Assembly (NCBI GenBank): GCA_964245595.1
Contig: CAXTNU010000001.1
Coordinates: forward strand, 1-52,648
Length of the DNA: 52,648 nt
Direction: 5' to 3'
From: an uncultured bacterium
Lineage (GTDB): Bacteria > Vulcanimicrobiota > Vulcanimicrobiia > Vulcanimicrobiales > Vulcanimicrobiaceae
Of this stretch, positions 19,161 to 45,881 are shown piece by piece. The notes under the pieces are model-generated. The model saw only the letters and a program-made list of their open reading frames with translations, did no database searches and was not told where the DNA came from. The first letter of the stretch is position 1. Each line of letters begins with the position of its first letter. The position numbers were made by a program, and so were the translations under genes.

Positions 19161-19643
19161 TCACGCGCGGGCCGGTTCGGGCACGAACTGCTCGAGCGCC
19201 ACGCCCGCCTCGGCCAGCAGCGCTTGCGCGACCGGATCGGGGTAGGCGTCGGCGTAGACGATCCGGACCACGCCGGCGCTGATCAGCAGCTTGGAGCAGC
19301 CCGCGCAGGGCTGGTGGGTGCAGTAGGCCGTCGCCCCCGCGATCCCGACCCCGTGCAGGGCGCCCTGGACGATCGCGTTGGCCTCGGCGTGGGTGGCCCG
19401 CAGGCAGTGGCCGTCGACGATCAGGCAGCCGGCGTCGGTGCAGTGGGCGACCCCGCGGGGGGCGCCGTTGTAGCCGGTGGTGAGGATGCGCCGGTCCCGG
19501 GTGAGCACCGCCCCGACGCTGGCCCGCGGGCAGGTCGCCCGCGTGGCCACCGTCCGCGCGATGTCCATGAAGTACTCGTCCCAGCCGGGGCGCGTTACAC
19601 CGGAAACTCGATTCACCCCGGAAATTCGCTCGTCTTCTCGCAA
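19161..19643 (-). CDS. dCMP/cytidine deaminase (ComEB-like); first codons supplied by the island
   Basis: RPGWDEYFM, ATC.R..VGAV, GYNG, HAEANA, PC..C; TTG start aligns with the GTG of the displaced copy at 45759. Confidence 0.9.
   Translation of the reverse strand: MREDERISGVNRVSGVTRPGWDEYFMDIARTVATRATCPRASVGAVLTRDRRILTTGYNGAPRGVAHCTDAGCLIVDGHCLRATHAEANAIVQGALHGVGIAGATAYCTHQPCAGCSKLLISAGVVRIVYADAYPDPVAQALLAEAGVALEQFVPEPARA
19582..19593 (+). repeat. attL-like core
   Basis: CAGCCGGGGCGC, identical to 45701-45712. Confidence 0.85.
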
Positions 19644-19653
19644 TCCGCCCCGT

Positions 19654-20478
19654 TTATTCGCCGTCTCCCCTTCTGCGGCCCGGCGACTTGTAGGAGGGCA
19701 CGCCGTCGCGCAGGTAGCGGCCCAGGAAGGCCCTCGTGTGATGCGTGCCGCCGGTGCGGACCTGGCGTGTCGCCGCCACGGTCGCTCCGACGGTGCCGTC
19801 GAAATCCGCGATGGCTGAGCACAGTGCCCTGAGTGCCTCGCGCCATGGCGTCTCGGCCAGGCGGTAGACGCGGAACGGTCCGACGGTGGTGGCCGTGAAG
19901 AGGCCGTCGCGCTCCATCGGCCGGAGCAGGGCGAGCATCTCATGCTGGGTCTTGACGCCGCAGCCGCGCGCGACGGAACTCTCGTCCACCTCCTCGAGCT
20001 GCGCCACGAGGATGACGGCAAGGGTCCGCAGCGGTGACCCGAGCCAAGTCAGCGGGCTGCCTTGGGCGCCGCGTTTCGGAAACTGACGCGGGGTCGTCGG
20101 TGCATCTACAAGGCACGAACCTTCGGGGATTGGCGCTGGTGGGCCGATGCGCACGGCGTTCGCGGCGCCGACCGCCGTCAGCACGCGTCGAACCGCGGGA
20201 GTGAGCGGGCCTTCTCGGGCCAGGCGGTAATCGAAGACGTTCCAACGCTCGGCCGTCGTCCAGCGCCCGATGAGGCCGGCGATGGCCATTTTCCGCAGGA
20301 GGCCTTCGGCCCCGGATGCCGACAGGGCGGCGAGCGCCGGGATGGCGTTTCGGCGCGCGGGCTCGGCCGAGCCGATCTCGACGAGGACCCGCGTCGCGAG
20401 GCTGTTGCCCAGGAACAAGGGCGGGTATCCTTCCTGCGCCTCGCTCCGCCGGCGGCGAGCCGGGTCCCACCTGTCCAC
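19654..20478 (-). CDS. Double winged-helix protein, paralog A
   Basis: Two repeats of the LG...RT.V..E...L..LE.DG...G..R.Y.L wHTH pattern; paralogous to 20518-21390. Confidence 0.6.
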   Translation of the reverse strand: MDRWDPARRRRSEAQEGYPPLFLGNSLATRVLVEIGSAEPARRNAIPALAALSASGAEGLLRKMAIAGLIGRWTTAERWNVFDYRLAREGPLTPAVRRVLTAVGAANAVRIGPPAPIPEGSCLVDAPTTPRQFPKRGAQGSPLTWLGSPLRTLAVILVAQLEEVDESSVARGCGVKTQHEMLALLRPMERDGLFTATTVGPFRVYRLAETPWREALRALCSAIADFDGTVGATVAATRQVRTGGTHHTRAFLGRYLRDGVPSYKSPGRRRGDGE

Positions 20479-20517
20479 GAGACGGCGGTACGCTGCCGCG
20501 ATCCAGGCTCCCCGTGG

Positions 20518-21390
20518 CTAACGCCGTCGCCGACGGCGGCGCGGCCGCATGGGCTCCAAACCGAGATGCGCGCGAAGGTGAACGCGGCCGGAGCACTGGC
20601 CGTGAACCAGGAGGATCCTGGCCGGCGCGATGACGCTCGCGAGGTCGGGTCGGACGCGGAGGACGGCCTGGCAGAGCGCGATGAGCGGCTCGGTCCAGGG
20701 TGCCTTGAAGAGCCGGTAGAGCCGGATGGAGCCGACCATCCCGCTGGTCAGCACCCCGTCCGCCTCGAGCGGGTCCAAGAGGCGGTGCATGTCGCCGTCC
20801 GTCCGCACCCCGGCGACCCGGGCGATGGTCGAGGCGTCCCCCGCGCCGAGCGAGGCGCAGACCAGGACCGCCGTCGTGCGGTTGGGGTGGCCGAAGATGG
20901 TCTCGACGTCGCCCGGTGGGCGGCCGAAGATGCGCAGCCTGGTGACGTTTGAGCCCTCGACCACGGCGAGATCTTCGGACGGTGAAGGGGAGGGTGTCCA
21001 GGTCAGGTTGTTCGTGTCCGCGATGCTGCGCAGCAGGTCGCGCACCGGCTCGGCGAGTGAGTGGCGTCGGTCGAGGGTCAGGAGGTAGCCGTCGTGGTGG
21101 GCGGGATTGCGGTAGCGCCGCACCAATCTGAGCGCAACGAGCCTGCGGACGGTGTGGCCGAGATTGGCGTCCGTGACGTTCGCGCGCTCGGGTAGGTCGT
21201 TGATGGCCACGGGCTCGCGTGCGGCGATTTCGACGAGCGTCTTTGTGACGGCCGCTGAGCCTAGGATCAGTGCCGGGTATCCCGGCCTATTTGCTTTGAT
21301 GTTGTCCTGTCGACGCCCGCGTGGACTTGGGATTCGGTCGTGAACCAACGAAGGAGCATAGCCTGGCTTTTCTTTTTCGTTGCGGCGCAT
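20518..21390 (-). CDS. Double winged-helix protein, paralog B (start uncertain)
   Basis: GYPALILGSAAVTKTLVEI vs GYPPLFLGNSLATRVLVEI in paralog A; IFGHPNRT...LDPLEADG...GSIRLYRL. Confidence 0.6.
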   Translation of the reverse strand: MRRNEKEKPGYAPSLVHDRIPSPRGRRQDNIKANRPGYPALILGSAAVTKTLVEIAAREPVAINDLPERANVTDANLGHTVRRLVALRLVRRYRNPAHHDGYLLTLDRRHSLAEPVRDLLRSIADTNNLTWTPSPSPSEDLAVVEGSNVTRLRIFGRPPGDVETIFGHPNRTTAVLVCASLGAGDASTIARVAGVRTDGDMHRLLDPLEADGVLTSGMVGSIRLYRLFKAPWTEPLIALCQAVLRVRPDLASVIAPARILLVHGQCSGRVHLRAHLGLEPMRPRRRRRRR

Positions 21391-21603
21391 GCACCGGCAC
21401 GCGGCGCCGCAACGAACGAAACTGTACGGTTCGGCTCTGACCCATCGGGAATCGGAGCGACACGGGAACGGGCGGAGGGATGCGCTCCGCAGGGTGTCTG
21501 TCCCTCGTCCACCGTTCGGCGCGCGTAGCGCCCACATGCTCAGTCCGCGCTAGGTACTGCGGGTCCTCACACACGGTACGATTGCCGCATGGCGACGCCG
21601 GCA

Positions 21604-22242
21604 CTAGAATTTCGTGCGCAGTAGGCCGAGCGAATCGGCCTCCAGGGCCGCGATACGGCGGCCGAGGTTTTCCCGCGCGGTCGTTTCCGAATGCACCACG
21701 TCGAGCGCGTGGGCAAGGCCGAAGTCCACTGCCGGCGCGGCGAGCACGCGCTCACGCATGATCGAGAAGCGTGACATCGCCGCCAAGCCCTCCAACAAGG
21801 TGTCGAAGTGGACGAACCGTCCCTGCAACTGCGCGCAGATGTCCGCAAGTGAGGCAGTTGCAGCGAGCGCGCGGATGCATCGTCCGTCGCCCGTAAAGAG
21901 CAGTGTGTCCGCGTTCGAGCAGGCGTAATCAATGAAGCGAGCTTCGCCGTCGTCGATGCCGGGAACCGCAGCGAGCCGCTTCAGACGCACCGCATCAACT
22001 GCGTCCGACGGCAGCGGTTCGCACATCGTGTACATGGTGTAGGCGTCCTTCCGGACGTCCGTTGTCGCGTAGAACTTTGCGTACAGCGGCAGCTTGTCGC
22101 TCAGGCGAAGCGAACCAAACGCGGCCGGCACGCAGAAGTACGGTCGCTTAGCTCCGTTCGACCGGAGCAACCGGTCTAGTTCGGCCACCAGTGAGAACGA
22201 CGCCGTCTTGATGATGACATCGTTGTCGAGAAGCGGCTGCAC
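21604..22242 (-). CDS. PIN-like protein
   Basis: LLDNDVIIK, IDDGEA, FTGDGR acidic motif set. Confidence 0.6.
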   Translation of the reverse strand: MQPLLDNDVIIKTASFSLVAELDRLLRSNGAKRPYFCVPAAFGSLRLSDKLPLYAKFYATTDVRKDAYTMYTMCEPLPSDAVDAVRLKRLAAVPGIDDGEARFIDYACSNADTLLFTGDGRCIRALAATASLADICAQLQGRFVHFDTLLEGLAAMSRFSIMRERVLAAPAVDFGLAHALDVVHSETTARENLGRRIAALEADSLGLLRTKF

Positions 22243-22251
22243 CAGTTGACG

Positions 22252-23289
22252 TCAGACCAACGGCTCGCGCAGCACGTCGTCGAGCATCTCAGCCGCGTCA
22301 GATGGCAAAGATCTCAAGTCGAGATGTTCGGCCGCCGCAGCGTTCACAGTCCGCATGGGGAGCGCAGGTTCGCTACGTCGCGTCTTTATCGCCCGATGCA
22401 TGAAGGCAAAGTCGTTAGTCTCGCGGCCGAACCGCAGCGCGAGATGTTCAGGGTCGATACGCAAGGGTGCCGCCTGCGACCAGAGGACGTTGGCCAGTTC
22501 GCGCGGGGTGCCTGCGAAGTTCTCCCAGAAGGCCGGCGCATCGAGACTTCCGAGGACGCCAAGTGCGTACCGGTTCGCGTCCGATTCGTCCTTTGCGTCT
22601 TGATCTTCATCGACCGCGTCGGAAAAGGATTCGTTCTCCTGAACATGCCCAAGTGCGATGTGGCCGAGTTCATGCGCGATAAGGAAGGCGTCCCACGCTG
22701 CCAACTGCTGCTCGTTGCGCGTGAGCAAGATGACGTCGCGGCCGTCAACACGATGGACCAACGCATCCATTCCGCGGGGAGTTGGGACCGCGGCGACATG
22801 AAGCACCGCGATATTGCGGTCCCAACAGTAGCGCAACAAGCCCTCCAACGACGTCCATGGTACGTCGCTGGAGGCCAGAATTTCCGCGCGTACACCGGCG
22901 GGGTCGGCGCTTACCGGGGCGGACCTCGGGATGGTGGCGGCGACTAAACGCGCGATGCCCGCGCAGTACGCCTGCGGCGCGTCCGGCGGCGCCTGGGCAG
23001 TCGAGGATCCCGAACGTTTGAACCGCATGCCAACAGGCCCGTCCGGGACGATGCGATCGTGCTCGAGGAACTCCGCCACGTCGAGTCCAAGGCGTCGCGC
23101 GAGAACGAGTTTAAGGTGCTGCTTCGCGCCCTCGTCCTCTCTCTCGACATCCGCGGTCCACCAGGTGGGGATGGCGTGGCCGAGGACGTCGGATTGGTAT
23201 CCCTCGCCACGGAGGCGCTTCGTGAGTTCGCGCACGGCCCGCCCTCGGCCGGCTAACGCATCGGCAGCCATCGAGTCTGGGACTTCCAC
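22252..23289 (-). CDS. ImmA/IrrE-family metallopeptidase
   Basis: FLIAHELGHI (HExxH), DESDANRYA. Confidence 0.8.
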   Translation of the reverse strand: MEVPDSMAADALAGRGRAVRELTKRLRGEGYQSDVLGHAIPTWWTADVEREDEGAKQHLKLVLARRLGLDVAEFLEHDRIVPDGPVGMRFKRSGSSTAQAPPDAPQAYCAGIARLVAATIPRSAPVSADPAGVRAEILASSDVPWTSLEGLLRYCWDRNIAVLHVAAVPTPRGMDALVHRVDGRDVILLTRNEQQLAAWDAFLIAHELGHIALGHVQENESFSDAVDEDQDAKDESDANRYALGVLGSLDAPAFWENFAGTPRELANVLWSQAAPLRIDPEHLALRFGRETNDFAFMHRAIKTRRSEPALPMRTVNAAAAEHLDLRSLPSDAAEMLDDVLREPLV

Positions 23290-23322
23290 GGTGGAGGCAA
23301 GGGTTCCGCCTGCCGGCTTGCT

Positions 23323-23862
23323 TTACGAGCACGCGACTCCGACTAGGCCGATCATCAGGTTTCCGTAGGCCTCGGCAAGGTCCAACAATTCGGCCACGCT
23401 CGGCGAGTTGCGGAGCACCAACACGATGTCATCGCCATGCCGCTCGGCGCGCAGAATGAGCTTTTGCAATTGGACTGCAGGATGCGTGCGGCCGTGTCTA
23501 CCACGGAGGTAGTGTAGGTCGGCCAGAAATGCTCCACGCGCGGCGCCGTCGCCGCGCAGAAAGAGCCTCGGATGATCCGTGGTCGCGTCCATCACCACGA
23601 GGGCGGACACGGAAACGAATCGGCCGCCGCGCGCTCGACGCAACCGGCACCTGATGCTTGTGCAGTACGCGACATCGACAACGGCGTCGGGATACCTCGC
23701 AAGGAGCCGCGAAAGCGCGCGTCCAGAACAGCGCAGCTTGATGCGGTCAGGACTTTCGCTTCGTTGAGCATGGACGCCCCTCTCACCGAGCGCGTACGCA
23801 GATTGCGCCAGCGCTTCCACGCCTGGGGTGTGGTGTGAAAGGTGGAGGGTAAACTCGGGCAT
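23323..23862 (-). CDS. Hypothetical protein
   Basis: GAGGAG RBS before ATG 23862; co-directional with neighbours; no motif recognised. Confidence 0.5.
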   Translation of the reverse strand: MPEFTLHLSHHTPGVEALAQSAYALGERGVHAQRSESPDRIKLRCSGRALSRLLARYPDAVVDVAYCTSIRCRLRRARGGRFVSVSALVVMDATTDHPRLFLRGDGAARGAFLADLHYLRGRHGRTHPAVQLQKLILRAERHGDDIVLVLRNSPSVAELLDLAEAYGNLMIGLVGVACS

Positions 23863-23898
23863 GATGGCTCCTCGTGGAAGCCGCACGCCTCATGTTTC

Positions 23899-23953: not shown

Positions 23954-24934
23954 CTACGCCGTCTTGCGTCGGCCCGCGCGGCGGGCTCGCTCGAACGGAT
24001 TGCGGATTGGGTAGACGGGCGGGCCGGGAAGGTTCACCGTTGGACAGCTGTAGCGGACGTCACAGGCGTTGCAGGTCTTGGTGTCTGGCGGTTCCAACGG
24101 CGTCGGCCAGTTGCCGTCCTGACGATGCTGCATAATCGCCCGGGCATCGGCATCGAATCGCGTAAGCGCTTCACGCACGCGTTCCTCGGTGATAGTTACA
24201 TCGAGAGTGGCGAATTGGGGCCGTCCCTTCGTCCTGTTCACCCCTTCAAGTTCATTAATGAAGTACACAACGGCGCGAGCAGGGAAGGCGTCCGTCCGTA
24301 GGCGGTACAGTTCCGCGTACACAAGCATTTGCCACTCGTAGTTCTTCCAGTCCGCTGTGCCGCGTCCGAGCCGTTTGGAACCCTTGTAGTCCCAGATCTC
24401 CATGGTCCCGGGATCGAGTGGTTGGTCGATGCGCTCAACGTCCTCAGCCCGCGCGATGACATCGACGACGCCGCGCAACACGTAGTCGCGCCGGTCGCTC
24501 TCAAGCCGGAACTCTGTGTCATGCACGCGCGGGTAGAGCGTCGGTCCTTCGATGGCGTTGAAGTTCTTAATGACCTCCTCTGCCTGGTCTGCGACATCGT
24601 CGTTTGCCGCACGCACGCCGTGTGATTGGAGCGCGTTGCGGACCTCGAGGAAATATGTGGCGATGTCCTCGTCCCTCGCAAGCGTCCCGAACGGTCTATC
24701 CGGGACGAGTCCCCGGTAGAGGCGGTGGCAACGGTCGAGGACCTGGTGGATGATAGTCCCGTAGAACGCCTGCGTAGAGCGCGCCGGCACGAAGCCATCG
24801 TTTCCAAAGAAGCGGTACTGTCGGGAGCATTTCCGGTACGACAGAATGTCGGATGTTAGGCTAAACCGTGGCCGGGCCACGGTCGGCGGCTGATACGGGA
24901 CGTGCAAGCCCTCGAAGTTTTCCCAAATCGCCAT
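23954..24934 (-). CDS. RecB/AddB-like PD-(D/E)XK nuclease with Fe-S cysteines
   Basis: CSRQY, GTIIH, LRGVVDV, IWDYK, QMLVYA, C..C.....C. Confidence 0.88.
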   Translation of the reverse strand: MAIWENFEGLHVPYQPPTVARPRFSLTSDILSYRKCSRQYRFFGNDGFVPARSTQAFYGTIIHQVLDRCHRLYRGLVPDRPFGTLARDEDIATYFLEVRNALQSHGVRAANDDVADQAEEVIKNFNAIEGPTLYPRVHDTEFRLESDRRDYVLRGVVDVIARAEDVERIDQPLDPGTMEIWDYKGSKRLGRGTADWKNYEWQMLVYAELYRLRTDAFPARAVVYFINELEGVNRTKGRPQFATLDVTITEERVREALTRFDADARAIMQHRQDGNWPTPLEPPDTKTCNACDVRYSCPTVNLPGPPVYPIRNPFERARRAGRRKTA

Positions 24935-24943
24935 ATCATATCC

Positions 24944-27172
24944 TCATAACGGCGGCGCGTGGTACCGCAGCCAGGTGCGGTCTGGTCCGCACGGGATGCT
25001 GTCGTTTCTGCGGAAGTGGGCATCGCTACCGACGAGGATGAGCGCCCACTGCGCGCGCGAGTACGCCACGTAGAACGCGCGCACGGTATCGACCTCCGCG
25101 CGCACGGAGGCGTCTGGGCGCGCGAATTGACGCGCGTCTTCGCGCGCGAACCGGGCGATGTCGTCCTCCAGCGCGTAGACAGCAGCCTTGGGATTAGCGG
25201 TCGTGCCCATGCTCCCAACGAAGACAAACGGGAACTGCAATCCCTTCGCCTGGTGGATGGTCATGATTGGGACGTAGCCGGGTGGGACGATGATGTCATC
25301 ATCCTCCTCGTCGTTCATCCCCTCAAGCGCCAAAAACCCGAAGAACAAGTTGTAGAAGCCACCGTTCCATTTCGGCACTACGCCGCGCTCGCCTGTAGGA
25401 GCGGCCATCATGCTGCCGCGCCGTACACGGTCGTCGCGCGCGACGGGAAGCGAAGCGAACGCCTCGATCAGAGCCGTGATTTTGGCAAGCCGCTCACGTC
25501 GGACCGGGTCCTCGTCGTTCCACGAGCGGAACGGTTGGAGCGCGAGGATCAGGTACAGCAACTCTTGCAGTTCGGTTGGTACGCGTTCGCCGGGGTGCTC
25601 ACCGATATTGCGCACCGCTTGCGCAACGTAGGTGCCCAGCTCGGGGTGGTCGCGCGCCACCCTCTCGTAGACGGCACGCGCACTATGGACGAGGTCCGCT
25701 ATCTCGCGTTCCCAGGGAGGGCTCGGGAGGTCCGGGTCGGTGATCGCCGTGATGGCGCCGAGCAGCGCGAGAACCTCCTCTTGCGCGAGGAACGATTTAT
25801 TGCGCGGATTGAAATATGGGATGCCGCGCGCGCGCAGCGCCGTCGCATAGGCGCCCGCTCCCTGCGCACCCTCTTTCGTGCTGCGCAGGATTAGACAGCA
25901 CTGACTATAGTCCTCGATGACACCGTTGTTTTTCAGGTCTGCAATGGTCTCGGCAAAAGCGTCCGCGAACGCTTCGTAGTTGCGTCCGCTCATCTTCCCG
26001 ACCGCAGGGTAGTCGTGCGCGCTGATCTTCGTGTTCATCGCCTCAAGGGGCGGTTTGCCGGGCACGCGTGACCCCGGTGCGGCCATCCCCGCGAACGCTG
26101 TCACGTACGCGTTGCAGAAGTCGACCACCTTACTGTGGGAACGAAAGTTCTCTACTAGCGGGTATTTCGCGACCTCGGCGCGTTCGACGCCCAGTTGCGC
26201 GACGCAAGCTTCATCGAACGTCACCATGCATTCAACAGAGGCGCCCCGGAAGCGGTACAGAGCCTGGTCGTCGTCGCCGACCACGACGATGTTCTTCGTG
26301 CCACGCGCGAGGTTCAGATAGATACGTTCCTGCAGCACGTTAGTGTCCTGGTATTCGTCGACAAGCACCCACCGGATCGGCGGGCGCTCCGTGGTACCTT
26401 CGCGCAGCTCACGTCCCGCCGGCGTGTCGAGGAACTCGAGAAAGCGCGCTTGCAGGTGGGCAAAGTCGCAGCGGTTCCGTGCTTTGAGCGTCTCCGTGTA
26501 CTGCTCATAGACATCGGCCAACATAGCCCAGGCGCCGCCCTCGGCCCGCATGAGGGCGAGCGAGGCGCGGTCTTCGGCCACCCGGTTGAACAGTTTCACG
26601 AGTTCGCGCGTTGCGACCCAGCGCCGTGGAGGCTTGTCGTACTCGGGCTTCCAGTCGAGCGGACGGAACAGGTACGCGAAGTGGCGCCAGAACTCCAGCC
26701 GTTCCGGCGCCGTGCTCCGCTTGACGAACTCCACGTGCTGGTGCACAAACATTGCCGTCTCGAACTCGTCCATGAGGCGGACGTTCTGATAGTTAGGCGC
26801 GCGGAATTCTTGCAGGAGGTCATTGCACAGGCCGTGCAGCGTGCCGATGCGAAGACGCGAAACGTCAACGCTGCGCGCCTCAGGATACGCGTTCACGACG
26901 GCCGTGTTGTAGAGGCCAATTCGGTCGTCGATGTTGCGAGCGGCCTTCTCGGTGAACGTCGTTACGACGATGCTCTCTGCGTCGACCCCATCGACGTAGA
27001 GCAGACGAAGCACAAGCAGAGCGAGCGTCTCGGTCTTCCCCGAGCCCGGTCCGGCGATAACCCAGGCCGGGCCAGAGGGGTGCGCGATGATATTGCGCTG
27101 TGCCCTGCTCGGACGCTCCTCGCCATCGCCGCGAGGTGGAAAGATGGCGCGCAGCAACTGCTCGAGGGTCAT
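24944..27172 (-). CDS. UvrD/Rep (SF1A) helicase
   Basis: AGPGSGKT, TFTEKAA, VDEYQDTN, GDDDQALYRFRGA, NFRS, TIHQAKGLQF, YVAYSRA; AGGAG RBS. Confidence 0.95.
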   Translation of the reverse strand: MTLEQLLRAIFPPRGDGEERPSRAQRNIIAHPSGPAWVIAGPGSGKTETLALLVLRLLYVDGVDAESIVVTTFTEKAARNIDDRIGLYNTAVVNAYPEARSVDVSRLRIGTLHGLCNDLLQEFRAPNYQNVRLMDEFETAMFVHQHVEFVKRSTAPERLEFWRHFAYLFRPLDWKPEYDKPPRRWVATRELVKLFNRVAEDRASLALMRAEGGAWAMLADVYEQYTETLKARNRCDFAHLQARFLEFLDTPAGRELREGTTERPPIRWVLVDEYQDTNVLQERIYLNLARGTKNIVVVGDDDQALYRFRGASVECMVTFDEACVAQLGVERAEVAKYPLVENFRSHSKVVDFCNAYVTAFAGMAAPGSRVPGKPPLEAMNTKISAHDYPAVGKMSGRNYEAFADAFAETIADLKNNGVIEDYSQCCLILRSTKEGAQGAGAYATALRARGIPYFNPRNKSFLAQEEVLALLGAITAITDPDLPSPPWEREIADLVHSARAVYERVARDHPELGTYVAQAVRNIGEHPGERVPTELQELLYLILALQPFRSWNDEDPVRRERLAKITALIEAFASLPVARDDRVRRGSMMAAPTGERGVVPKWNGGFYNLFFGFLALEGMNDEEDDDIIVPPGYVPIMTIHQAKGLQFPFVFVGSMGTTANPKAAVYALEDDIARFAREDARQFARPDASVRAEVDTVRAFYVAYSRAQWALILVGSDAHFRRNDSIPCGPDRTWLRYHAPPL

Positions 27173-27254
27173 GGTCTCCTGCCCGGGCCGTAGCAACAGA
27201 GAAGGCTTCTGCCGGAAGAGCCTCTCGGGCTGCCCTACTTGATCGGGTCCCCTC

Positions 27255-27350
27255 GACACCCCTGCACAGTTTATAGCCCTGTTCGTGGGTGTCTTAGCAT
27301 AATAACTGTAGACCATGAGGAATATGTTGCTACGCAGTTAATAAGCCCTC
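27255..27350. promoter_or_regulatory. AT-rich divergent promoter region between the helicase and the dpd-like operon
   Basis: CATAAT and TAATAA boxes; imperfect IR TAACTGTAG...CTACGCAGTTA; separates divergent genes. Confidence 0.5.
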
Positions 27351-28244
27351 ATGCCCAGAGCGACGCCCGAAACAGTGCGCCGTCCTATCGTGGTGACGTG
27401 GTGCGTCGCTCGTAAGACGGTTCCGGCCAGTGCCCGATTCACGGAGGCCTCGGGGTCGACATCCGACCGCATCGCCGCTTGGCTCGGGACGCTACGGGAC
27501 GCACCACCCAAGGTCCCGGCGCGGGACCTGTACGCGGGCCGCGCGTTTTGTCTCGCGCGTGAGGCAGCAGACCGTTACGGAGCCGACCTCTCGGTCGTGT
27601 CGGCGGGACTAGGCTGGGTGACCGCCACGACGGTCGTGCCAGCCTACGACGTGACAGTGGGAACAGGGGGCCTTCAGGGCCACGACTTCGACCTGGCCGC
27701 ATGGTGGCGATCCGTGGTCACTGGCCCCTTCTCGACCACTCCGGGACGCGACCTGGCGGACCGACCTCTGGTCCTCGCCTGTGTCGCGAGCGCCTACGCG
27801 TCGTTCTTCTCGGATGCGCTTGGTTCAGTTCCGCGCGAGCGGCTACGGATCTTCGGCAGCGGACTCGCGCAACGCCTGGGAGGAGGGTTATCCTACGCGG
27901 TGATGCCGTACGACGACCGGCTCGACGTTCTCGTACCGGGGACGCGAGCGGACTTCGCGCAGCGCGCGCTTCGCCACTACCTTTTTGAGATCGGTCCGTC
28001 GACAGATACCGAGGGAGACAAGCGGCGAATCAAGGCTGCGCTCGCTGGTCTGGCGAAGGATCGGATCCGACCCGGACGGAGCCTGGGCGACGAAGAGATC
28101 CGCGCACGCATCTGCCAAACCGCGGCCGAGACTGGGTTGAGCCGGACGGCGATGCTGCGCCACTTCCGAGACGTGCTTGGGATCGCTTGCGAGCAGTCCC
28201 GGTTCGCGCGCCTGTACGGGGAGGCGTTGCCCGATGGGCACTGA
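27351..28244 (+). CDS. YaaA/DUF328-like protein, candidate DpdC
   Basis: C..RK, PARDLYAG, VVSAGLG.V, PAYD motifs; first gene of the dpdA operon. Confidence 0.6.
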   Translation: MPRATPETVRRPIVVTWCVARKTVPASARFTEASGSTSDRIAAWLGTLRDAPPKVPARDLYAGRAFCLAREAADRYGADLSVVSAGLGWVTATTVVPAYDVTVGTGGLQGHDFDLAAWWRSVVTGPFSTTPGRDLADRPLVLACVASAYASFFSDALGSVPRERLRIFGSGLAQRLGGGLSYAVMPYDDRLDVLVPGTRADFAQRALRHYLFEIGPSTDTEGDKRRIKAALAGLAKDRIRPGRSLGDEEIRARICQTAAETGLSRTAMLRHFRDVLGIACEQSRFARLYGEALPDGH

Positions 28245-29343
28245 CGCGCTCGTCGTGCGCGCCATTCACGCGCGGCAGGGCGACCACGACATCTACTCCT
28301 TCTTCATCCGTGGCCCGCAACTCTTGAAGATCGCGAAAATCTCGCGAATCGCGCCCGACGAGAAGGGCGGGCTCTCAGGCTTTCAACGTAAGCCCGTCCA
28401 AGATCAAGTGCGCGCCATCGCGGAATACGTTTCGCGCGGCGACGTGCTCTTCCCGAACGCCATCGTGCTCGCCCTCAGTTCGAATGTCAAGTACGTAGCA
28501 ACCCGAGGCCCCACCCCACGTGGAAGCAACGACACGGGGGAGGCGGGGACACTCACAATTCCCGCCGCCCAGGGCACTGCCGCGGCGTGGATCGTAGACG
28601 GCCAGCAGCGCGCACTCGCGCTCGCGGAGAGCCGCGCGGAACACCTCCTCGTCCCGGTGGTCGCATTTGTCTCCGAAGCGGTGGCGACGCAACGCGAGCA
28701 GTTCATTTTGGTCAACAAGGCGCGACCACTCTCGCGCCGGCTAATCGACGAACTGCTGCCCGAGGTAGACTTCCCGCTGCCTCGGGATCTTTCAGCACGC
28801 AAGACGCCGAGCTACCTTTGCGGCGTGCTCAACGACCACCCTGACTCTCCGTTCCATGGGCTGATACGCCGAGCGTCGACCGTCGGCGACGGCGCCGTCG
28901 TCACCGACTCAAGCCTTGTCCGCGCCATCCGGAATAGCATCGCACATCCGCGCGGCGCGCTTGCGGCGCACGTCACACCCGACGGCAAGACGGATATGGC
29001 TGCGGCCTTCCAGACATTAGTCACCTTCTGGGGAGCAGTCCGCGACGTTTTTCCGGATGCGTGGGGGTTGCCAGCCGACCGCAGCCGGCTCATGCACAGC
29101 GCCGGCATTGAGGCCATGGGAGTTCTGATGGACCAAATCATGGGCCGCCTTGCGTCGACAGACAACGCCTTGAAAGTTCGTACGTCGCTCGAACGAATCG
29201 CTCTCGAATGTCGTTGGACTCACGGTCGTTGGGCGACGATCGATCGCGAGTGGAACGACATTCAGAGCACCCCGCACGATGTCAGGCTACTCGCGAATCT
29301 ACTCGTCTCTCTGGATCGGGGCGCCCTGGTGGAGCAGCGTTGA
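28234..29343 (+). CDS. DGQHR-domain (DndB/DpdB-like) protein 1
   Basis: GFQR, FPNAIVL, IVDGQQR, QFILVN. Confidence 0.88.
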   Translation: MGTDALVVRAIHARQGDHDIYSFFIRGPQLLKIAKISRIAPDEKGGLSGFQRKPVQDQVRAIAEYVSRGDVLFPNAIVLALSSNVKYVATRGPTPRGSNDTGEAGTLTIPAAQGTAAAWIVDGQQRALALAESRAEHLLVPVVAFVSEAVATQREQFILVNKARPLSRRLIDELLPEVDFPLPRDLSARKTPSYLCGVLNDHPDSPFHGLIRRASTVGDGAVVTDSSLVRAIRNSIAHPRGALAAHVTPDGKTDMAAAFQTLVTFWGAVRDVFPDAWGLPADRSRLMHSAGIEAMGVLMDQIMGRLASTDNALKVRTSLERIALECRWTHGRWATIDREWNDIQSTPHDVRLLANLLVSLDRGALVEQR

Positions 29344-30611
29344 AGTTTCTGTACTCCGACAGCCTGGACTTCGTCGATCCAGAATACGATTTCGCGCGCG
29401 GTCAGCACGGGGCCGTGCGTCGCATGCACGAGGACGACGATTATCCCCACGAGCATTTCGCGAAGGCGCCATACGACGGCCTTCTGGTGTCCCGTGCCAT
29501 AGTCGGCGACGCCCACCGAAAGGGCAAGTACACGCCCGCGCAGGCCATGCGCTTTCATCGCGAAGGGGCCCGTGCGTTCCTGCGGTATCCGAAGGCCCGC
29601 TTCCGCGGAAGCATTATGATGGGCGACTGTGGCGCGTTTTCGTACAGCAATGATGCGGTTCCGCCCTACAGTGTCGAAGACACGCTCGAATTCTACGAAG
29701 ACGGCGGCTTCTCGCACGGGTGTTCCGTCGACCACGTCATCTTTGACTTCACTGACAATGCTCGTCCATCGCGACGCGCGAAGAAGCGCTTCGACATCAC
29801 GCTTGACAACGCGAGGCGCTTCATCAAGGCATCCGGCGTCTTGGGTAAGGGTTTCACGCCGGTAGGCGTCGTCCAGGGCTGGTCGCCGGAGAGCATGGCC
29901 GATGCAGCGGTGCAACTCGCCAAGATGGGATACCGATACCTCGCAGTTGGCGGCCTAGTTCCGCTGCGGACTTCGCAGATATGCTCCGCGCTCGCGGCGA
30001 TCCGCGACCCGCTACCCTCTTTTGTGAAGCTCCATTTGCTCGGGTTCGGAAAGGTGGAAGACCTCCAGGAAGTCGCCCGCTACGGAATCGCGAGCTTCGA
30101 CACGACCTCGCCGCTTCGTCGCGCGTTCAAAGACGCGGATAAGAACTACTTCGCCTTCCGCCCGGACGGCGGCATAGACTACTACACTGCGATCCGCATA
30201 CCGCAGGCAGTCAATAGTTCGCGGCTGCTTCGGCGTGTTCGCCTGGGCCAGCTGAACCAGGAGCGGCTCCTGACGCTGGAGGCCGACGCTCTCGCCGCCG
30301 TCCGCGCGTTCGCTGAGCGACGTATGAACAGCATGGACGCGGTAAGCGCCATCATGGCGTACGTCACGTACGCGCTCTGGGACGACCGGGTGACGGACGA
30401 GCGGAACTCGGCACGCTTCGCGCGATTCGCGACCGTGTACTGCCAGACACTAGAATCCCGCGTGTGGGAGTCGTGCGACTGCAGGGTCTGCGCTGAGATC
30501 GGCGTGGAGTGCCTCCTCTTCCGCTCCTCAAACCATAACAAACGCCGTGGTTTTCACAATCTACACGTCTTCTACAAGAGCGTCGGCGCACGCTTCGGCA
30601 GGAAAGTATGA
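29340..30611 (+). CDS. dpdA: TGT-like DNA 7-deazaguanine transglycosylase
   Basis: DCGAFSY, SVDH, GVVQGW, GGLVP, HLLG, SFDTTSP, Zn site C.C..C...HN; TTG overlaps upstream TGA. Confidence 0.85.
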   Translation: MKFLYSDSLDFVDPEYDFARGQHGAVRRMHEDDDYPHEHFAKAPYDGLLVSRAIVGDAHRKGKYTPAQAMRFHREGARAFLRYPKARFRGSIMMGDCGAFSYSNDAVPPYSVEDTLEFYEDGGFSHGCSVDHVIFDFTDNARPSRRAKKRFDITLDNARRFIKASGVLGKGFTPVGVVQGWSPESMADAAVQLAKMGYRYLAVGGLVPLRTSQICSALAAIRDPLPSFVKLHLLGFGKVEDLQEVARYGIASFDTTSPLRRAFKDADKNYFAFRPDGGIDYYTAIRIPQAVNSSRLLRRVRLGQLNQERLLTLEADALAAVRAFAERRMNSMDAVSAIMAYVTYALWDDRVTDERNSARFARFATVYCQTLESRVWESCDCRVCAEIGVECLLFRSSNHNKRRGFHNLHVFYKSVGARFGRKV

Positions 30612-31645
30612 CCGCCACCACTATAACTCTCGGGCCGACGATCTCGCCGCATCAGGGGACAGCCGCCCGGGTCCTGTGCTTCACCGCTACCGCGCGTCAA
30701 ATCGCTAGCATCGCCCGGATCGACCGCATCGGTCGTGATGGGAGCGGCGACCTGCGCGGCTTTCAGCGTCCCCAGATCGCTACGCACATCCGGGAAATAC
30801 GGGACTACCTTTCCACGTCAGAAGCGATACTTCCCAACGTCATCGTCCTCGCCTTCAATGAAGGCGTGAAGATTCGGAAGGACGGCATGTTGCTTGTCGA
30901 CGTCTCGACAGGACCGCCAGGATGGGTAGTCGATGGACAACAGCGGCTGACCGCCGCGCTGTCGATCGGCGAATCGCCGTTCGAACTGCTCGTATCGGCC
31001 TTCATCTGCAACGACATGGCGGAACTCAAGCGCCAGTTCATCCTTGTGAACAACACGCGACCGCTCGCAAAGCCCTTGATTTACGAACTCCTGCCCGGCA
31101 CGAGCGGCCTTCCGCACCGCCTATCCGACCGCACCGAAGCCGCCATCCTGACCGAAGCACTCAACTACCGCGAGGACTCGTCCCTCCACGGTTTGATCCA
31201 GCAGCAGACCAATCCCGACGGCGTCATCAAGGACACGATCCTGCAGAAGATGCTGATCAACTCGATGCTCCACGGAGCGCTGCGAGACGGGGCCGGAACG
31301 TCGGTCGCGTCCCGGTTTGCACTCGTGAGCGCGTTCTTCGCCGCGGTACGGCGCGTTTTTGAGCCCGATTGGGTGGGCCACAACGCCAAGACGTCTCGGC
31401 TACTCCATGGCGTGGGCGTGATCTCTATGGGCTACGTGATGGACGAACTCTACGTCCGCAAACGCGCACGCCGGCTCCGGGAGTTCGAACGTGGCTTGGA
31501 TCCGCTCGATGGGCGCACGCACTGGACGTCCGGGGAATGGAAGATTGGGGCCGAGCGGCGTCCGTGGCACTCGCTGCAGAACACGAACGCTGATTATCGG
31601 CTGCTTTCCCACCACCTCGTGCGCATGATACGGCGGGGACCGTGA
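30608..31645 (+). CDS. DGQHR-domain (DpdB-like) protein 2
   Basis: GFQRPQI, LPNVIVL, VVDGQQR, QFILVN. Confidence 0.88.
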   Translation: MTATTITLGPTISPHQGTAARVLCFTATARQIASIARIDRIGRDGSGDLRGFQRPQIATHIREIRDYLSTSEAILPNVIVLAFNEGVKIRKDGMLLVDVSTGPPGWVVDGQQRLTAALSIGESPFELLVSAFICNDMAELKRQFILVNNTRPLAKPLIYELLPGTSGLPHRLSDRTEAAILTEALNYREDSSLHGLIQQQTNPDGVIKDTILQKMLINSMLHGALRDGAGTSVASRFALVSAFFAAVRRVFEPDWVGHNAKTSRLLHGVGVISMGYVMDELYVRKRARRLREFERGLDPLDGRTHWTSGEWKIGAERRPWHSLQNTNADYRLLSHHLVRMIRRGP

Positions 31646-31727
31646 GGACGCAGGATGCCAGCCGTCTGGAACCACAAGCGGCGACGATGCCGGCGACGCC
31701 GTGTCTGGCCGGGAGGGATGAAGTACG

Positions 31728-32447
31728 ATGAGTGATTTGGACCCGTCCGCGGCGTTGGTCCTATTTTCGGGCGGACAGGACTCAACCACGTGCCTCGCCT
31801 GGGCTCTCGACCGGTTCGCCCGGGTGGAGACGATCGGCTTCCTCTACGGTCAACGTCACGCTGTCGAGATGGACGTGCGCGAACCGATCCGCGATGCATT
31901 ACGCGCGCACTCGCCGGTGTGGTCCGAACGGCTGGGGCCGGATCACGTCGTGCCGCTCGAGGCGCTGCCGCTCGTGTCACGGAGCGCCCTCGTGGACGGC
32001 GGTTCGTTCGGCCTGCGCGACGACGGGTTACCGAAAACCTTTGTGCCAGGCCGAAACCTAGTGTTCCTAATGTTCGCGGCAATCGTGGCGCAGCAGCGGG
32101 GACTCAAGGTTCTGGTTGCGGGGACATGCGAGACTGACTATTCCGGTTATCCGGACTGCAGGGACGACACCGTTAAAGCCCTCCAGGTCGCGCTGAACCT
32201 CGGGATGCAGACGCGTCTGACGATCGAGACGCCGCTGATGTGGTTGGATAAAGCACAGACGTGGGAGCTGGCCGGGGCGCTGGGTGGTGATGAACTCATG
32301 TCGCTCGTGGTCGAGATGACTCACACCTGCTACGCCGGTGATCGTACGCATCGGCATTCATGGGGCTACGGATGCGACGCGTGCGACGCGTGCGCGTTGC
32401 GGGCCCGCGGCTGGTCCGCCTACGGGTTGCGCAGGATCCAGGCCTGA
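31728..32447 (+). CDS. queC: 7-cyano-7-deazaguanine synthase
   Basis: [38 protein letters not shown]...GC..C.AC. Confidence 0.95.
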
Positions 32448-32451
32448 GACG

Positions 32452-32826
32452 GTGCGCATCACCAAGACGTACCGCTTCGAAGCCTCCACTTGTTGCCGCA
32501 TCATGATGGTAAGTGCGCGAATCTGCACGGCCACTCGTACCGCCTCGACGTTAGCGTCGCAGGGCCGTTGCGCGACGAGGGTCCGCAAGCCGGCATTGGT
32601 CATGGACTTCTCGGATCTATCCCGGGTCGTCAAGCAGCGCGTCGTCGACGTCTTGGACCACACACACCTCAACGACGTGCTTCAGAACCCAACGTGCGAG
32701 CATCTCGCCCTGTGGACATGGGAGAATCTCGCTCCGACACTCCCAAGCCTGGATGAGGTCGTGCTGTGGGAGACGGAGAGCGCCCGCGCGACGATTCGAC
32801 GGACCGACATCGAGGTAGCCCCGTGA
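32452..32826 (+). pseudogene. queD: 6-carboxytetrahydropterin synthase with two compensating frameshifts
   Basis: FEAS[H]..., C.NLHGHSY (in the shifted frame), MDFSD, LDH..LN, NPT.E, LWET; -1 at about 32486 and +1 at about 32596. Confidence 0.85.
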
Positions 32827-33651
32827 GCGCGAGACGGCGAGCGCTGCCAGCGTGGTTGTGGCCGCCGTGGTGGAGTGGAGGGTCGAGACGCATTGACCCA
32901 GACGCCGTCGGGCGCATGTTCGCCGCTCTCCGGAGCGATGCGAGCAAAGCTGCGCTCTGTGAGGCGCACGACATCGCGAAAGCAAGCCTGACGTTGGTCG
33001 TCGAACTGACGGAATACGAGGACAGCAAGGTCGCCAGGCTCCTGACAGTGGTGGCGTTCTTGAGCGCGATCGTAGGAGCGGTCTTCACTCGGTTTTCGAC
33101 CATCTACGGATGGAACCGGCGCGTACGCTGCCGTCAAGGCGACGTACGTCCTGTTCTTCGTTTACAGCGTGCTCGTGGCTCTGGCGGCCACCGTGCTCAT
33201 TGGAGCGATCCGTCCGACGTTCAACTTGCGCTGGACCGGAGAGCACAAGGGGTTGCCCGACTCGCTGTTCTTCTATCAGAAGATCCTGGAGGTATCTCCT
33301 GACGAGTGGGTCAAGGCATTCACCGGATCAACCGACATCAAGGCCAGAGCCGCCGGCGACTACGTCGCCGAGACCTATTTCGTGGCGGAGAAGATCGCGA
33401 AGAAACTGTGGTGGGTCAAACGCGGCGTCTACCTGTTGATTGTGGCGATGGCGATCCTCGTCGCGTTCTTAGTCCTCGCGGGTGAGACGTTCATCACGGT
33501 GAGACCGACTCCGACACCGCCCGCGGTCGTGATCGTCACGTCGCCTACGTCGACATTGTTGCCGACCGATGCTCCGTTGTCGAGCGCGACCGTCACGCCG
33601 TCTCCCTGTCCGATGAAGACCAAGCAGGCGACGTTCCGAAAGCCCGTGTAG
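32823..33651 (+). pseudogene. Pycsar-effector (PycTM/DUF5706)-like membrane protein with one +1 frameshift at about 33114-33117
   Basis: EDSKVARLL-TM1, TM2, SLFFYQKI, Y...KIAKK...V-TM3; about 275 aa when repaired. Confidence 0.6.
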
Positions 33652-34430
33652 ATGCGTGTCCGTCTGTTCGCCGATGCGGACAACATGCTGTGGGACACCA
33701 ATGCGGTGTTCGGGGCCGCTCAATTGTCGCTCGCGCGCAACGTCGCCGATCTTTCGCCCCGGCCGGGGCTGCTCGACGTCGAGGACGAGGCGGCGCTTCG
33801 GCTCGTCCGTGTGCTTGATCAGCGATTGGCGGTCAATCATGAGTTGGGGTTGCGGTACCCCCGCTCCTGTTGGCGAAAGCCCTACATGTTTTGCTCGGAG
33901 GTGATGGCGACGAGGCGAAGCTCGTCGAGGCGGTCGAACTGCATCACGCCGCCCTCGCGGCGAAGCCGCCGTTGCGCGCGGGCGTACGTGAAGGGCTTGG
34001 GGCGCTAGCCACGGCTGTCGGTCAGCTCGTCCTTGTGACAGAGTCACGCCAGGCACGTTGCATCGACCTGCTCGACCATCATGCCTTGGCGGACCATGTC
34101 GAGCGCGTCGTGTACGGCGCCAAGTCACCGTCGTTGTACCGTGAACTCCGCGACGTCGGCTGTACCGACGTGATGGTCGGCGACCAATTGGACCGGGACA
34201 TCGCCTTCGCGCAGGCGGCGGGCTTCGTGGGCATCCACTTCAGCGGCGGATTTACGCCGTTTTGGACGTCTGACCTGGAGGTCCGATTTGACTTCTCGAT
34301 AGGTGATTTCCGAGACTTGGTACCCATCATGGCGCGCCTCGTTTCGGCCGGCTCATCTCAGGCACTCTCGGCATCGCGGCACGTAACTCAGGCGCAGATG
34401 CCGTCGGAACGCTCGAACAACGCGGATTGA
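33652..34430 (+). pseudogene. HAD-superfamily hydrolase with one -1 frameshift in the C5 run at 33858-33862
   Basis: DADNMLWD (motif I), VTE (II), K (III), MVGDQLDRDI (IV); about 259 aa when repaired. Confidence 0.8.
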
Positions 34431-34700
34431 GCGACCATCTGGTGTGGCGGCAAGTCAGACATGGCCTGCAAGCGTCGTGCGAGGAAGGCGGTGTCGTCAC
34501 GACGAGTAAACGCCCGCTCCAAGGAGCCGGATGCGGACGCATCTGACGCCCACGCGCACCATCGGTGACGAAGATGGGCTAGATGTCCGGCAGCCGGTGC
34601 CGGAGGGTCTCGATTCAGCGGAGCCGGCGGCGGTGGCGGTCTGGGGCACACCACCCCTTGGTGGCCAAGCACGCGTCCGCTGCTCGCCCGGTGAGACCTG

Positions 34701-45700: not shown

Positions 45701-45759
45701 CAGCCGGGGCGCTCCGCCGCGGGCCGGCCCGATGGGGAAATTCGCTCGTCCTCGTGCAC
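45701..45759 (-). pseudogene. attR-like core plus displaced original 5' end of the dCMP deaminase gene
   Basis: GTG-start peptide MHEDERISPSGRPAAERPG aligns with MREDERISGVNRVSGVTRPG at 19643; frame stops a few codons past the core. Confidence 0.8.
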
Positions 45760-45881
45760 CGAGGGCTGATTATTCGCTAGGACGATCCCGGCCGCCCGTG
45801 TCCAGCCGTCTGGCTCGCGGGCCGAACCGGCGGCGAAGGTGGGAATTGTTTACGCTGCGTAAGGGACCGGCCACTTACTTC

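What the first reader, a model, noticed from the sequence alone, without database searches (positions are those of the whole stretch)
23954..34430. Candidate new defence system: a minimal 7-deazaguanine DNA-modification operon with non-Dpd effector genes
Seen: a tightly coupled operon (YaaA-like, DGQHR, TGT-like, DGQHR, queC, queD, TM protein, HAD) sits back-to-back with a UvrD helicase and a PD-(D/E)XK nuclease inside a mobile island. Known: in the Dpd system DpdA with DpdB exchanges guanine for preQ0 in DNA, DpdC (YaaA-like) converts it to ADG, and restriction needs DpdD-K. No dpdD-K-like gene is recognisable in the island. Inference: this is a distinct restriction-modification architecture in which deazaguanine marks self, the helicase-nuclease pair restricts, and the TM/HAD pair adds an abortive or nucleotide-sensing layer. 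I do not recognise this combination as a named system.
Basis: partly seen in the sequence, partly recalled or inferred. Interest (0 to 1): 0.9.

Follow-up and report, generated by a model that had tools for sequence, protein, structure and literature searches.

The report
Compact Dpd variant with Metis-like alarm
An inserted island carries the genes predicted to write a 7-deazaguanine mark into the cell's own DNA, lacks the eight usual restriction genes, and instead carries a recurring helicase-nuclease pair that likely destroys unmarked DNA plus a membrane-protein/phosphatase pair (broken in this copy) that would kill the infected cell when the marked nucleotide is released.

Summary
The window encodes dpdC-dpdB-dpdA-dpdB-queC-queD-TM-HAD, divergent from a UvrD helicase and an AddB/Cas4-like nuclease, in a 26 kb insertion. 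DpdA keeps its catalytic aspartates, and no DpdD-K was found in the 89.8% complete assembly. queD, TM and HAD are frameshifted here; an intact copy of the layout lies on Bradyrhizobium plasmid NZ_CP083722. Among 101 DpdA loci of 15 kb or more, 27 have the helicase-nuclease pair alone, 62 DpdD-K alone, 3 both and 9 neither. 14 of 15 genomes with the pair lack DpdJ and DpdF genome-wide; the nuclease was not found in 1,060 background genomes. The exclusion is not significant after correcting for kinship (p about 0.125). The modification core, doubled dpdB and dpd islands without restriction genes are in print; I found no paper naming this pair as the replacement. TM+HAD is almost confined to dpd operons and has the layout of type II Metis (3-helix effector plus HAD phosphatase), suggesting sensing of a deazaguanine nucleotide; homology to MisB/MisC could not be tested. 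No activity is shown. Verdict: new variant of Dpd.

The parts
19582..19593 (.). left copy of the 12-base direct repeat bounding the island, inside the 5' end of the dCMP deaminase gene
   Evidence: empty site in G351
23954..24934 (-). PD-(D/E)XK nuclease of AddA/AddB/Cas4 type, 326 aa, intact; invariant E141, D158, D182, K184 and four cysteines C36, C288, C291, C297 (predicted iron-sulphur site)
24944..27184 (-). UvrD-type (SF1) helicase, 746 aa from the start shared with relatives; helicase motifs intact
27351..28244 (+). dpdC (DUF6884, YaaA-like), predicted to convert dPreQ0 to dADG
28234..29343 (+). dpdB copy 1 (DGQHR-family ATPase, motif DGQQR), 369 aa
29340..30611 (+). dpdA DNA-guanine transglycosylase, 423 aa; D96, F100, D131, D254 and GGLVPL align with Salmonella D95, F99, D130, D256 and the preQ0 loop
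30608..31645 (+). dpdB copy 2 (motif DGQQR), 345 aa
31728..32447 (+). queC, preQ0 synthase, intact; the only queC found in the assembly
32452..32826 (+). queD, broken by two frameshifts; the host has another queD next to queE on contig C195
32823..33651 (+). PycTM-like membrane protein (three predicted helices in the intact relative), broken by one frameshift near 33120-33133; candidate MisC-like effector
33652..34430 (+). HAD phosphatase (DADN motif, GDQxxxD motif), broken by one frameshift near 33846-33861; candidate MisB-like nucleotide cleaner
45701..45712 (.). right copy of the 12-base direct repeat bounding the island

Best explanation
The locus joins a complete Dpd modification core, predicted to put 7-deazaguanine into the host's DNA, to two exchangeable modules: a UvrD helicase plus AddB/Cas4-like nuclease that likely replaces DpdD-K as the arm that degrades unmarked DNA, and a membrane protein plus HAD phosphatase that likely works like type II Metis. 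Steps. (1) QueC with the host's FolE2, QueD and QueE makes preQ0; DpdA with DpdB swaps it for guanine; DpdC converts it to ADG (genes and catalytic residues shown; chemistry carried over from Salmonella). (2) Helicase and nuclease form one unwinding-cutting machine (co-evolution shown, complex predicted) that is stalled by or avoids marked DNA (inferred from gene context only). It does not co-evolve with DpdA, so it probably reads the chemical mark rather than a matched sequence. (3) The HAD enzyme removes the phosphate from stray dADG or dPreQ0 monophosphate; when a phage shreds the chromosome the nucleotide builds up and opens the membrane protein, ending the infection (inferred by analogy). 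In this genome step 3 is probably dead through frameshifts.
For: Core; pathway genes elsewhere in the genome. Replacement pattern: 27 pair-only, 62 DpdD-K-only, 3 both, 9 neither of 101 loci; DpdJ and DpdF absent genome-wide in 14 of 15 pair-bearing genomes, present in 22 of 22 controls; nuclease in 0 of 300, 0 of 380 and 0 of 380 background genomes; the pair label needs at least 9 changes on the DpdA tree. Reverse search from the nuclease: 5 of 6 two-gene forms examined on plasmids lie within 12 kb of a DpdA/TGT gene. One machine: identity matrices of helicase and nuclease correlate at 0.94; fused forms exist; predicted complex 0.70 against best control 0.00; nuclease fold matches AddA, ACE1, AdnA, Dna2, Cas4. 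TM/HAD: 24 of 25 HAD-bearing loci also hold the TM protein (19) or a DUF6414 protein (5), never both, and TM never lacks HAD; 4 of 4 plasmid TM hits and 4 of 5 close HAD hits are in dpd operons; type II Metis is a three-helix membrane effector with a HAD cleaner, and its authors predict versions with their own modifying enzyme (10.1101/2025.11.05.686725).
Against: No activity is measured. The exclusion rests on few independent events: 9 independent pairs, 5.4 with and 1.0 against, median p 0.125; for HAD with the pair p 0.375. The pair coexists with DpdD-K in L066, L106/L107 and G342 and occurs without DpdA next to DISARM, alone in G302 (L172) and, in fused form, next to a methyltransferase or alone, which fits a general accessory role. 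No mark-reading domain was identified in either protein. 9 of 101 loci have neither arm. TM/HAD also rides with DpdD-K (L016, L027, L075, Agrobacterium plasmid) and often follows the preQ0 transporter yhhQ, which fits salvage. Homology to MisB/MisC was not testable. The complex score may reflect likeness to solved AddAB/AdnAB.
Confidence: 0.5

Rival explanations
1. The helicase-nuclease pair is a general accessory machine that chews DNA ends or clears DpdA reaction intermediates (abasic sites, covalent adducts) and does not read the mark; these loci are modification-only islands whose mark protects against other restriction enzymes.
For: AddAB-like fold and predicted complex; found with DISARM, with a methyltransferase, with full DpdD-K and alone; no co-evolution with DpdA (0.07-0.09); dpd islands without restriction genes are reported (PMC11888242).
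Against: A repair helper should be needed as much in DpdD-K loci, yet it is in 3 of 65 such loci against 27 of 36 loci without DpdD-K, and in 2 of 22 control genomes.
Confidence: 0.27
2. TM and HAD are housekeeping for the modified base: HAD dephosphorylates released deazaguanine nucleotides and the membrane protein exports or recycles them; there is no abortive layer.
For: Position at the end of the preQ0 genes, often right after yhhQ; weak matches of the HAD to nucleotidases that clean non-canonical nucleotides (YjjG E 2.3e-10); dispensable in most dpd loci.
Against: The membrane protein resembles the Pycsar death effector PycTM, not a transporter; its slot is taken by an unrelated soluble DUF6414 protein in 5 loci, as effector swapping would give; cleaning alone should be needed in all dpd loci.
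Confidence: 0.25
3. TM+HAD is an ordinary type II Metis that senses methylated nucleotides and sits here only because defence genes cluster.
For: Same layout as MisC-MisB; defence islands collect unrelated systems.
Against: This TM/HAD family was almost never seen away from dpd: 4 of 4 TM and 4 of 5 HAD plasmid hits, 0 of 400 other genomes of the order of G346; it is coupled start-to-stop to the que genes.
Confidence: 0.1
4. Mark plus helicase-nuclease is an addiction module that keeps the island or plasmid, or the pair attacks modified rather than unmodified invaders; phage defence by self-marking is secondary.
For: Sporadic spread on islands, plasmids and virus-labelled contigs.
Against: A nuclease against deazaguanine DNA could not sit beside an intact writer of that mark without a guard; addiction and restriction are not exclusive.
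Confidence: 0.08

Closest known systems
Dpd restriction-modification system (dpdA-K, Salmonella Montevideo; PMC10164549, PMC5699537)
   Same: DpdA with catalytic residues, DpdB, DpdC and preQ0 genes on an inserted island; same clade of DpdA also occurs with DpdD-K.
   Different: No DpdD-K; a two-gene SF1 helicase and AddB/Cas4-like nuclease instead; extra TM/HAD pair; two dpdB copies (extra dpdB copies are already reported, PMC11888242).
Type II Metis (MisC-MisB) and predicted type III Metis (10.1101/2025.11.05.686725)
   Same: Adjacent three-helix membrane protein and PF13419-type HAD phosphatase; effector slot exchangeable while the HAD stays; link to a DNA modification.
   Different: Coupled to a deazaguanine writer, not to adenine methylation; the membrane protein matches PycTM whereas MisC is described as lacking an annotated domain; sequence homology and ligand untested.
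dpd islands lacking the restriction operon (GATOR-GC survey, PMC11888242)
   Same: dpdABC with que genes and no dpdD-K.
   Different: The section read names no conserved substitute; here a recurring helicase-nuclease pair and TM/HAD pair are identified.
BRIGADE (10.1101/2025.09.15.676423) and BREX-related capture systems with TGT (PMC12839542)
   Same: Deazaguanine genes joined to non-canonical effectors, sometimes PD-(D/E)XK nucleases.
   Different: BRIGADE is defined by YprA helicases in haloarchaea, the BREX-related system by HerA/FtsK and no DpdB/C; neither is present here.
AddAB/AdnAB helicase-nucleases and Gabija GajB
   Same: UvrD-type motor; RecB-family nuclease fold with four cysteines.
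   Different: One motor and one separate nuclease; no second large subunit; no GajA match.

Membership tests
Dpd system | DpdA transglycosylase with catalytic Asp95, Asp130, Asp256 and preQ0 loop | tested here: met
   NF041059 500 bits over cut-off 200; D96, D131, D254, GGLVPL align to 7UI4; His181 is Gln179
Dpd system | DpdB ATPase and DpdC | tested here: met
   two DpdB over cut-off; DpdC E 1.7e-59
Dpd system | restriction block DpdD-K | tested here: not met
   none in island or assembly; best DpdF-like hits E 1e-40 over the helicase core only, as in 9 of 14 control genomes; assembly 89.8% complete; same result in 14 of 15 relatives with this layout
Dpd system | dPreQ0/dADG in genomic DNA and restriction of unmodified DNA | not testable with these tools
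   needs LC-MS/MS and transformation or plating assays
Metis type II | HAD phosphatase of PF13419 type | tested here: met
   intact relative L074 passes PF13419 (31 bits, cut-off 23.8); DxD motif invariant or nearly; window copy frameshifted
Metis type II | adjacent protein with three membrane helices | tested here: met
   three hydrophobic segments in intact relative L088; adjacent in 19 of 25 HAD loci; window copy frameshifted
Metis type II | sequence homology to MisB and MisC | not testable with these tools
   sequences are in supplements and figures not available; no Metis model hit in PADLOC 2023 or NCBIfam
Metis type II | activation by m6dAMP, dependence on Dam | not testable with these tools
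   gene context points to a deazaguanine nucleotide instead (inference)
Pycsar | PycTM-type effector | tested here: met
   PF18967 33.9 bits over cut-off 27.2; Atlas features and structure agree
Pycsar | pyrimidine cyclase PycC beside the effector | tested here: not met
   no cyclase match among the window proteins scanned; neighbours are queD and HAD
Gabija | GajA OLD-family nuclease beside a UvrD helicase | tested here: not met
   helicase hits GajB models (E 2e-37) but the partner is PD-(D/E)XK with no GajA hit
BRIGADE | YprA-family helicase | tested here: not met
   no DpdJ/YprA-type match at E 1e-20 in the assembly; definition from passages
AddAB/AdnAB-type helicase-nuclease | SF1 motor coupled to a RecB-family nuclease with four cysteines | tested here: met
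   (predicted, not measured)
AddAB/AdnAB-type helicase-nuclease | two large subunits, each with a nuclease domain (recalled) | tested here: not met
   only one helicase gene and one small nuclease gene in the locus and relatives

The most novel reading that the evidence does not exclude
One self-contained cassette uses a single hypermodified base twice: in DNA as the self-mark that holds back a two-protein AddB-like restriction machine, and as a free nucleotide as the alarm that opens a PycTM-like pore when a phage destroys the chromosome. This would be the smallest DpdB-type deazaguanine restriction system, show that DpdD-K is a replaceable arm, and be the first Metis-like sensor of a base other than methyladenine.
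Probability: 0.3. Interest if true: 0.87.

Novelty: new variant of a known kind. Interest (0 to 1): 0.66.

Why it matters
How Dpd restricts unmarked DNA is unresolved, partly because eight genes are involved. A two-gene arm on an intact plasmid locus of about 11.5 kb makes the question testable with purified proteins. The TM/HAD pair offers a direct test of the Metis authors' prediction that other modifications, written by a system's own enzyme, serve as signals of genome destruction. Defence-finding tools that require DpdD-K would miss or mislabel roughly a quarter of the loci in this DpdA clade.

Tried and rejected
Sequencing runs: none was listed for 27300-34500, so the frameshifts could not be checked on reads. 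Integrase: no PF00589 or PF07508 match on the window's contig; only a weak DDE transposase match at 41608-43332. Sequence search of solved structures with the nuclease and TM profiles gave nothing useful; fold searches with the TM model gave only generic helical bundles. TM and DUF6414 profiles are unrelated. DpdF-like hits on C268 and C454 were rejected as DpdF: helicase core only, far below true DpdF scores. The viral-contig search with the helicase mostly returned more distant UvrD proteins with no separate nuclease match; these 77 loci were not counted, apart from those on the two contigs already held as L168 and L171. Region L298 (second nuclease copy in G301) was fetched but not analysed because the script timed out. 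The Fisher test (p 1e-13) is not used as evidence because kin are not independent. Co-evolution of the pair with DpdA was tested and not found. Pycsar, Gabija and BRIGADE membership rejected (see tests). Literature searches listed no paper whose title, abstract or read passages describe DpdABC with a UvrD plus PD-(D/E)XK pair, or Metis with deazaguanine; Thiaville 2016 and the 2024 MMBR review were not held, Yuan 2018 was not tried, and bioRxiv supplements (Metis Tables S1, S3) were not seen, so prior description is not excluded.
Full report
OBSERVATION. On the + strand: dpdC (PADLOC E 1.7e-59), dpdB (406 bits, cut-off 300), dpdA (500 bits, cut-off 200), a second dpdB (342 bits), queC, queD, a PycTM-like membrane protein and a HAD phosphatase. 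On the - strand, 166 bases from dpdC and divergent: a UvrD helicase and, 9 bases after it, a PD-(D/E)XK nuclease. DpdA aligns over its length with Salmonella DpdA (7UI4, E 2.8e-87); D96, F100, D131, D254 and GGLVPL match D95, F99, D130, D256 and the preQ0 loop that PMC10164549 (abstract, sections 30 and 33 read) shows or models as needed; His181 is Gln here. queD has two frameshifts, TM and HAD one each. In 95 host genes compared with a relative, 3 showed a frame change over 37,062 residues, against 4 in about 640 residues here; local decay is the likelier reading, but no reads were listed to check.

ISLAND. Relatives match the left flank up to about 19595 and the right flank from the upp region, with 0.06 to 14 kb between them against about 30 kb here. 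Relative G351 has the empty site; the window has a 12-base direct repeat at 19582-19593 and 45701-45712 in the 5' end of the dCMP deaminase gene. GC is 0.63 in the operon against 0.70 for the genome. No recombinase was found on this contig. DpdA is in 2 of 300 other genomes of the phylum and 0 of 18 of the genus; both others carry DpdE-H. The host has queD and queE on C195 and a FolE2 match on C419, so preQ0 synthesis looks complete with the island's queC. No DpdD, E, F or J at family level, and no G, H, I or K, was found in the assembly (89.8% complete).

RELATIVES. An alignment of 30 close DpdA proteins fetched 166 loci: the best 80 of 470 in genomes, the best 80 of 524 in a partial metagenome scan, 6 viral. 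The core dpdC-dpdB-dpdA-dpdB-(queE-queD)-queC is the norm in this clade whatever follows it, so the second dpdB is not special; PMC11888242 (section 37 and passages read) also reports 801 extra dpdB copies and islands without restriction genes. Recurrent neighbours were named by PADLOC and Pfam: DpdD-K, YhhQ, FolE2, HNH, and the helicase-nuclease and TM/HAD families of the window. With profiles built from these families I scored 170 loci; 69 under 15 kb were dropped. Of 101 left, 27 had the helicase-nuclease pair alone, 62 DpdD-K alone, 3 both, 9 neither. The 27 include the window and three loci reached through the nuclease (L173, L186, L187), so 23 of 97 DpdA-first loci; some rows are near-duplicates (L007/L008, L096/L097, L106/L107); L164 has the pair under the score threshold, L155 has the helicase at its edge beside DpdE-H, and L058 has the pair beyond the flank. 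Because flanks were 10 kb, I searched 50 of the 80 genomes whole: DpdJ and DpdF were found in 1 of 15 pair-bearing genomes, 22 of 22 DpdD-K controls, and 1 and 2 of 13 others; the nuclease in 15 of 15, 2 of 22 and 1 of 13. Of the two controls with the nuclease, G342 has it inside the same island and G346 beside a second dpd core. The nuclease was not found in 300, 380 and 380 background genomes (only 5-6 candidates scored per genome).

On a FastTree of 98 DpdA proteins the pair label needs 10 changes, at least 9 forced by well-supported branches, and the window lies in a supported clade of 10 loci that all have the pair. The kin-corrected test is weak: 9 independent pairs, on average 5.4 with the exclusion and 1.0 against, median p 0.125. 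Across 27 loci helicase and nuclease identities track each other (0.94, p 0.001) but not DpdA (0.07 and 0.09), while DpdA tracks DpdC (0.55). The nearest whole locus, L088, is 78-84% identical in helicase and nuclease but 58% in DpdA.

REVERSE SEARCH. Starting from the nuclease, 20 plasmid records matched; I examined 10. Of 6 two-gene forms, 5 lie within 12 kb of a DpdA/TGT gene (Halobaculum, Scytonema, Bradyrhizobium, Rhizobium, Picosynechococcus) and 1 follows DISARM. The 4 fused forms lie beside a methyltransferase (1) or no annotated modifying gene (3). Bradyrhizobium sp. 41S5 plasmid NZ_CP083722 has the window's layout, intact and with queE. A second copy in G302 has no DpdA in the 20 kb fetched. 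Two virus-labelled contigs have DpdA with the pair and no DpdB. The family is wide: 224 clusters at 50% identity with E up to 1e-30.

HELICASE-NUCLEASE. The nuclease keeps E141, D158, D182, K184 and C36, C288, C291, C297 in all 27 aligned proteins. Its model (pLDDT 82.8) matches the Argonaute-linked Cas4-family ACE1, AddA, AdnA, Dna2, AddB and Cas4 (E 1e-6 to 1e-3); the split cysteine pattern is the iron-sulphur site of that group (recalled). Helicase motifs are intact. The predicted complex scored 0.70 against a best control of 0.00; runs agree in at least 82% of contacts, partner pLDDT at least 80; the mark was reached by 116 of 157 solved complexes and 2 of 215 mismatched pairs, and likeness to AddAB may explain the pass. 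PADLOC has no specific model for the pair, only GajB and weak Cas4 hits.

TM AND HAD. The HAD family was in 25 of 170 loci; 19 also hold the TM protein, 5 a different protein that the Atlas places in DUF6414 (0.97), none both, and TM never occurs without HAD. Among loci of 15 kb or more it is in 18 of 27 pair loci and 2 of 62 DpdD-K loci (kin-corrected p 0.375). On plasmids, 4 of 4 TM hits and 4 of 5 close HAD hits are in dpd operons, the fifth being a shortened orphan; the HAD was not found in 400 other genomes of one order. The intact TM of L088 has three hydrophobic segments and resembles PycTM, yet no cyclase is near. The Metis preprint (10.1101/2025.11.05.686725; parts 1-2 of 5, discussion and passages read, supplements not seen) shows that a three-helix membrane protein, MisC, is triggered by m6dAMP released when phages degrade the host genome, that a HAD phosphatase, MisB, clears basal m6dAMP, and predicts systems with their own modifying enzyme; it does not mention Dpd or deazaguanine. 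The pair here has that layout and sits at the end of an operon that writes a base found, in deoxy form, only in DNA. I infer that it senses dADG or dPreQ0 monophosphate. Homology to MisB/MisC could not be tested.

MECHANISM. Shown: gene content, catalytic residues, island limits, recurrence, co-evolution of helicase with nuclease, the broken tail. Carried over from Salmonella: DNA modification (about 0.9 for intact copies). Inferred: the pair as restriction arm (about 0.55), TM/HAD as Metis-like alarm (about 0.5). The main rival is an end-chewing or clean-up accessory beside an orphan modification.

COMPARISON AND NOVELTY. It is a Dpd modification module by every testable feature but fails the DpdD-K test, so it is a variant, not canonical Dpd. 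It works like type II/III Metis in layout; membership is untested. BRIGADE (10.1101/2025.09.15.676423, passages read) and the TGT-bearing BREX-related systems (PMC12839542, passages read) show that deazaguanine genes pair with other effectors, but with different helicases. PMC5699537 (passages) notes variable dpdEFJK. Eight literature searches listed no description of this combination; two key papers were not held. Earlier notes of this scan, unchecked, describe the same helicase-nuclease arm in a Bradyrhizobium locus and in DpdB-less cassettes; I reached that reading before looking, and none found by a search for Metis terms. That DpdB and the helicase coexist here argues that the helicase is not merely a stand-in for DpdB.

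VERDICT. Real, recurrent, modular. New variant of a known kind; interest 0.66. The window's own copy is a poor test object; the Bradyrhizobium plasmid copy is the one to test.

Noticed in passing
window 21604-23886 (- strand, three genes): An IrrE/ImmA-like metallopeptidase (PADLOC PD-Lambda-2_B E 5.7e-10, CapP weak), a 212 aa protein with a PIN-like start by eye, and a 187 aa protein follow the nuclease; all three are also in L088 (76%, 80%, 48% identity), inverted there. Possible regulator or separate defence unit.
   Followed up: partly
L009, L011, L048, L074, L095: A DUF6414 protein without membrane helices takes the TM slot before the HAD; it also occurs without HAD in L040, L046, L054, L148. 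Candidate alternative effector.
   Followed up: partly
L036, L047, L050, L052, L076, L079, L080, L082, L084, L091, L127, L138 and others: An HNH nuclease paired with a third, distant DGQHR-like protein recurs beside dpd cores of both types (17 loci in the family).
   Followed up: no
L013, L035, L045, L049, L114, L120, L132, L156: A 765 aa RecB-like nuclease (TM0106-like) precedes a long DpdJ-like helicase of about 2,100 aa; perhaps another Dpd restriction subtype.
   Followed up: no
L015, L018, L019, L021, L023, L024, L034, L070, L090, L122: A DUF6308 protein of about 205 aa recurs on the opposite strand next to the dpd core.
   Followed up: no
G000:C195:3961-5534 and window 31728-32447: The host's queD and queE lie on C195 without queC; the island's queC is the only one found in the assembly, so the island may complete the host's preQ0 pathway (or the host copy is unassembled).
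   Followed up: partly
window 19582-19661 and 45701-45777: The island's left end supplies a diverged copy of the start and upstream region of the dCMP deaminase gene, so the gene is restored after insertion; the gap between this gene and upp varies from 0.06 to 14 kb in relatives, a hotspot with no integrase found.
   Followed up: partly
window 43458-45608, 41608-43332, 19654-21537: Other island genes: a 716 aa protein without family match, with a nuclease-like motif by eye near residue 430; a weak DDE transposase-like protein; two related-looking winged-helix proteins at the left end.
   Followed up: no
G346 (L075 and L173): One Mesorhizobium genome holds two dpd islands, one with DpdD-K and one with the helicase-nuclease pair, each with a HAD gene.
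   Followed up: partly
L188 (Picosynechococcus plasmid NZ_CP014001): DpdA, a second TGT-like gene between two DEAD helicases, the helicase-nuclease pair and a NurA-HerA pair share a 38 kb plasmid.
   Followed up: no
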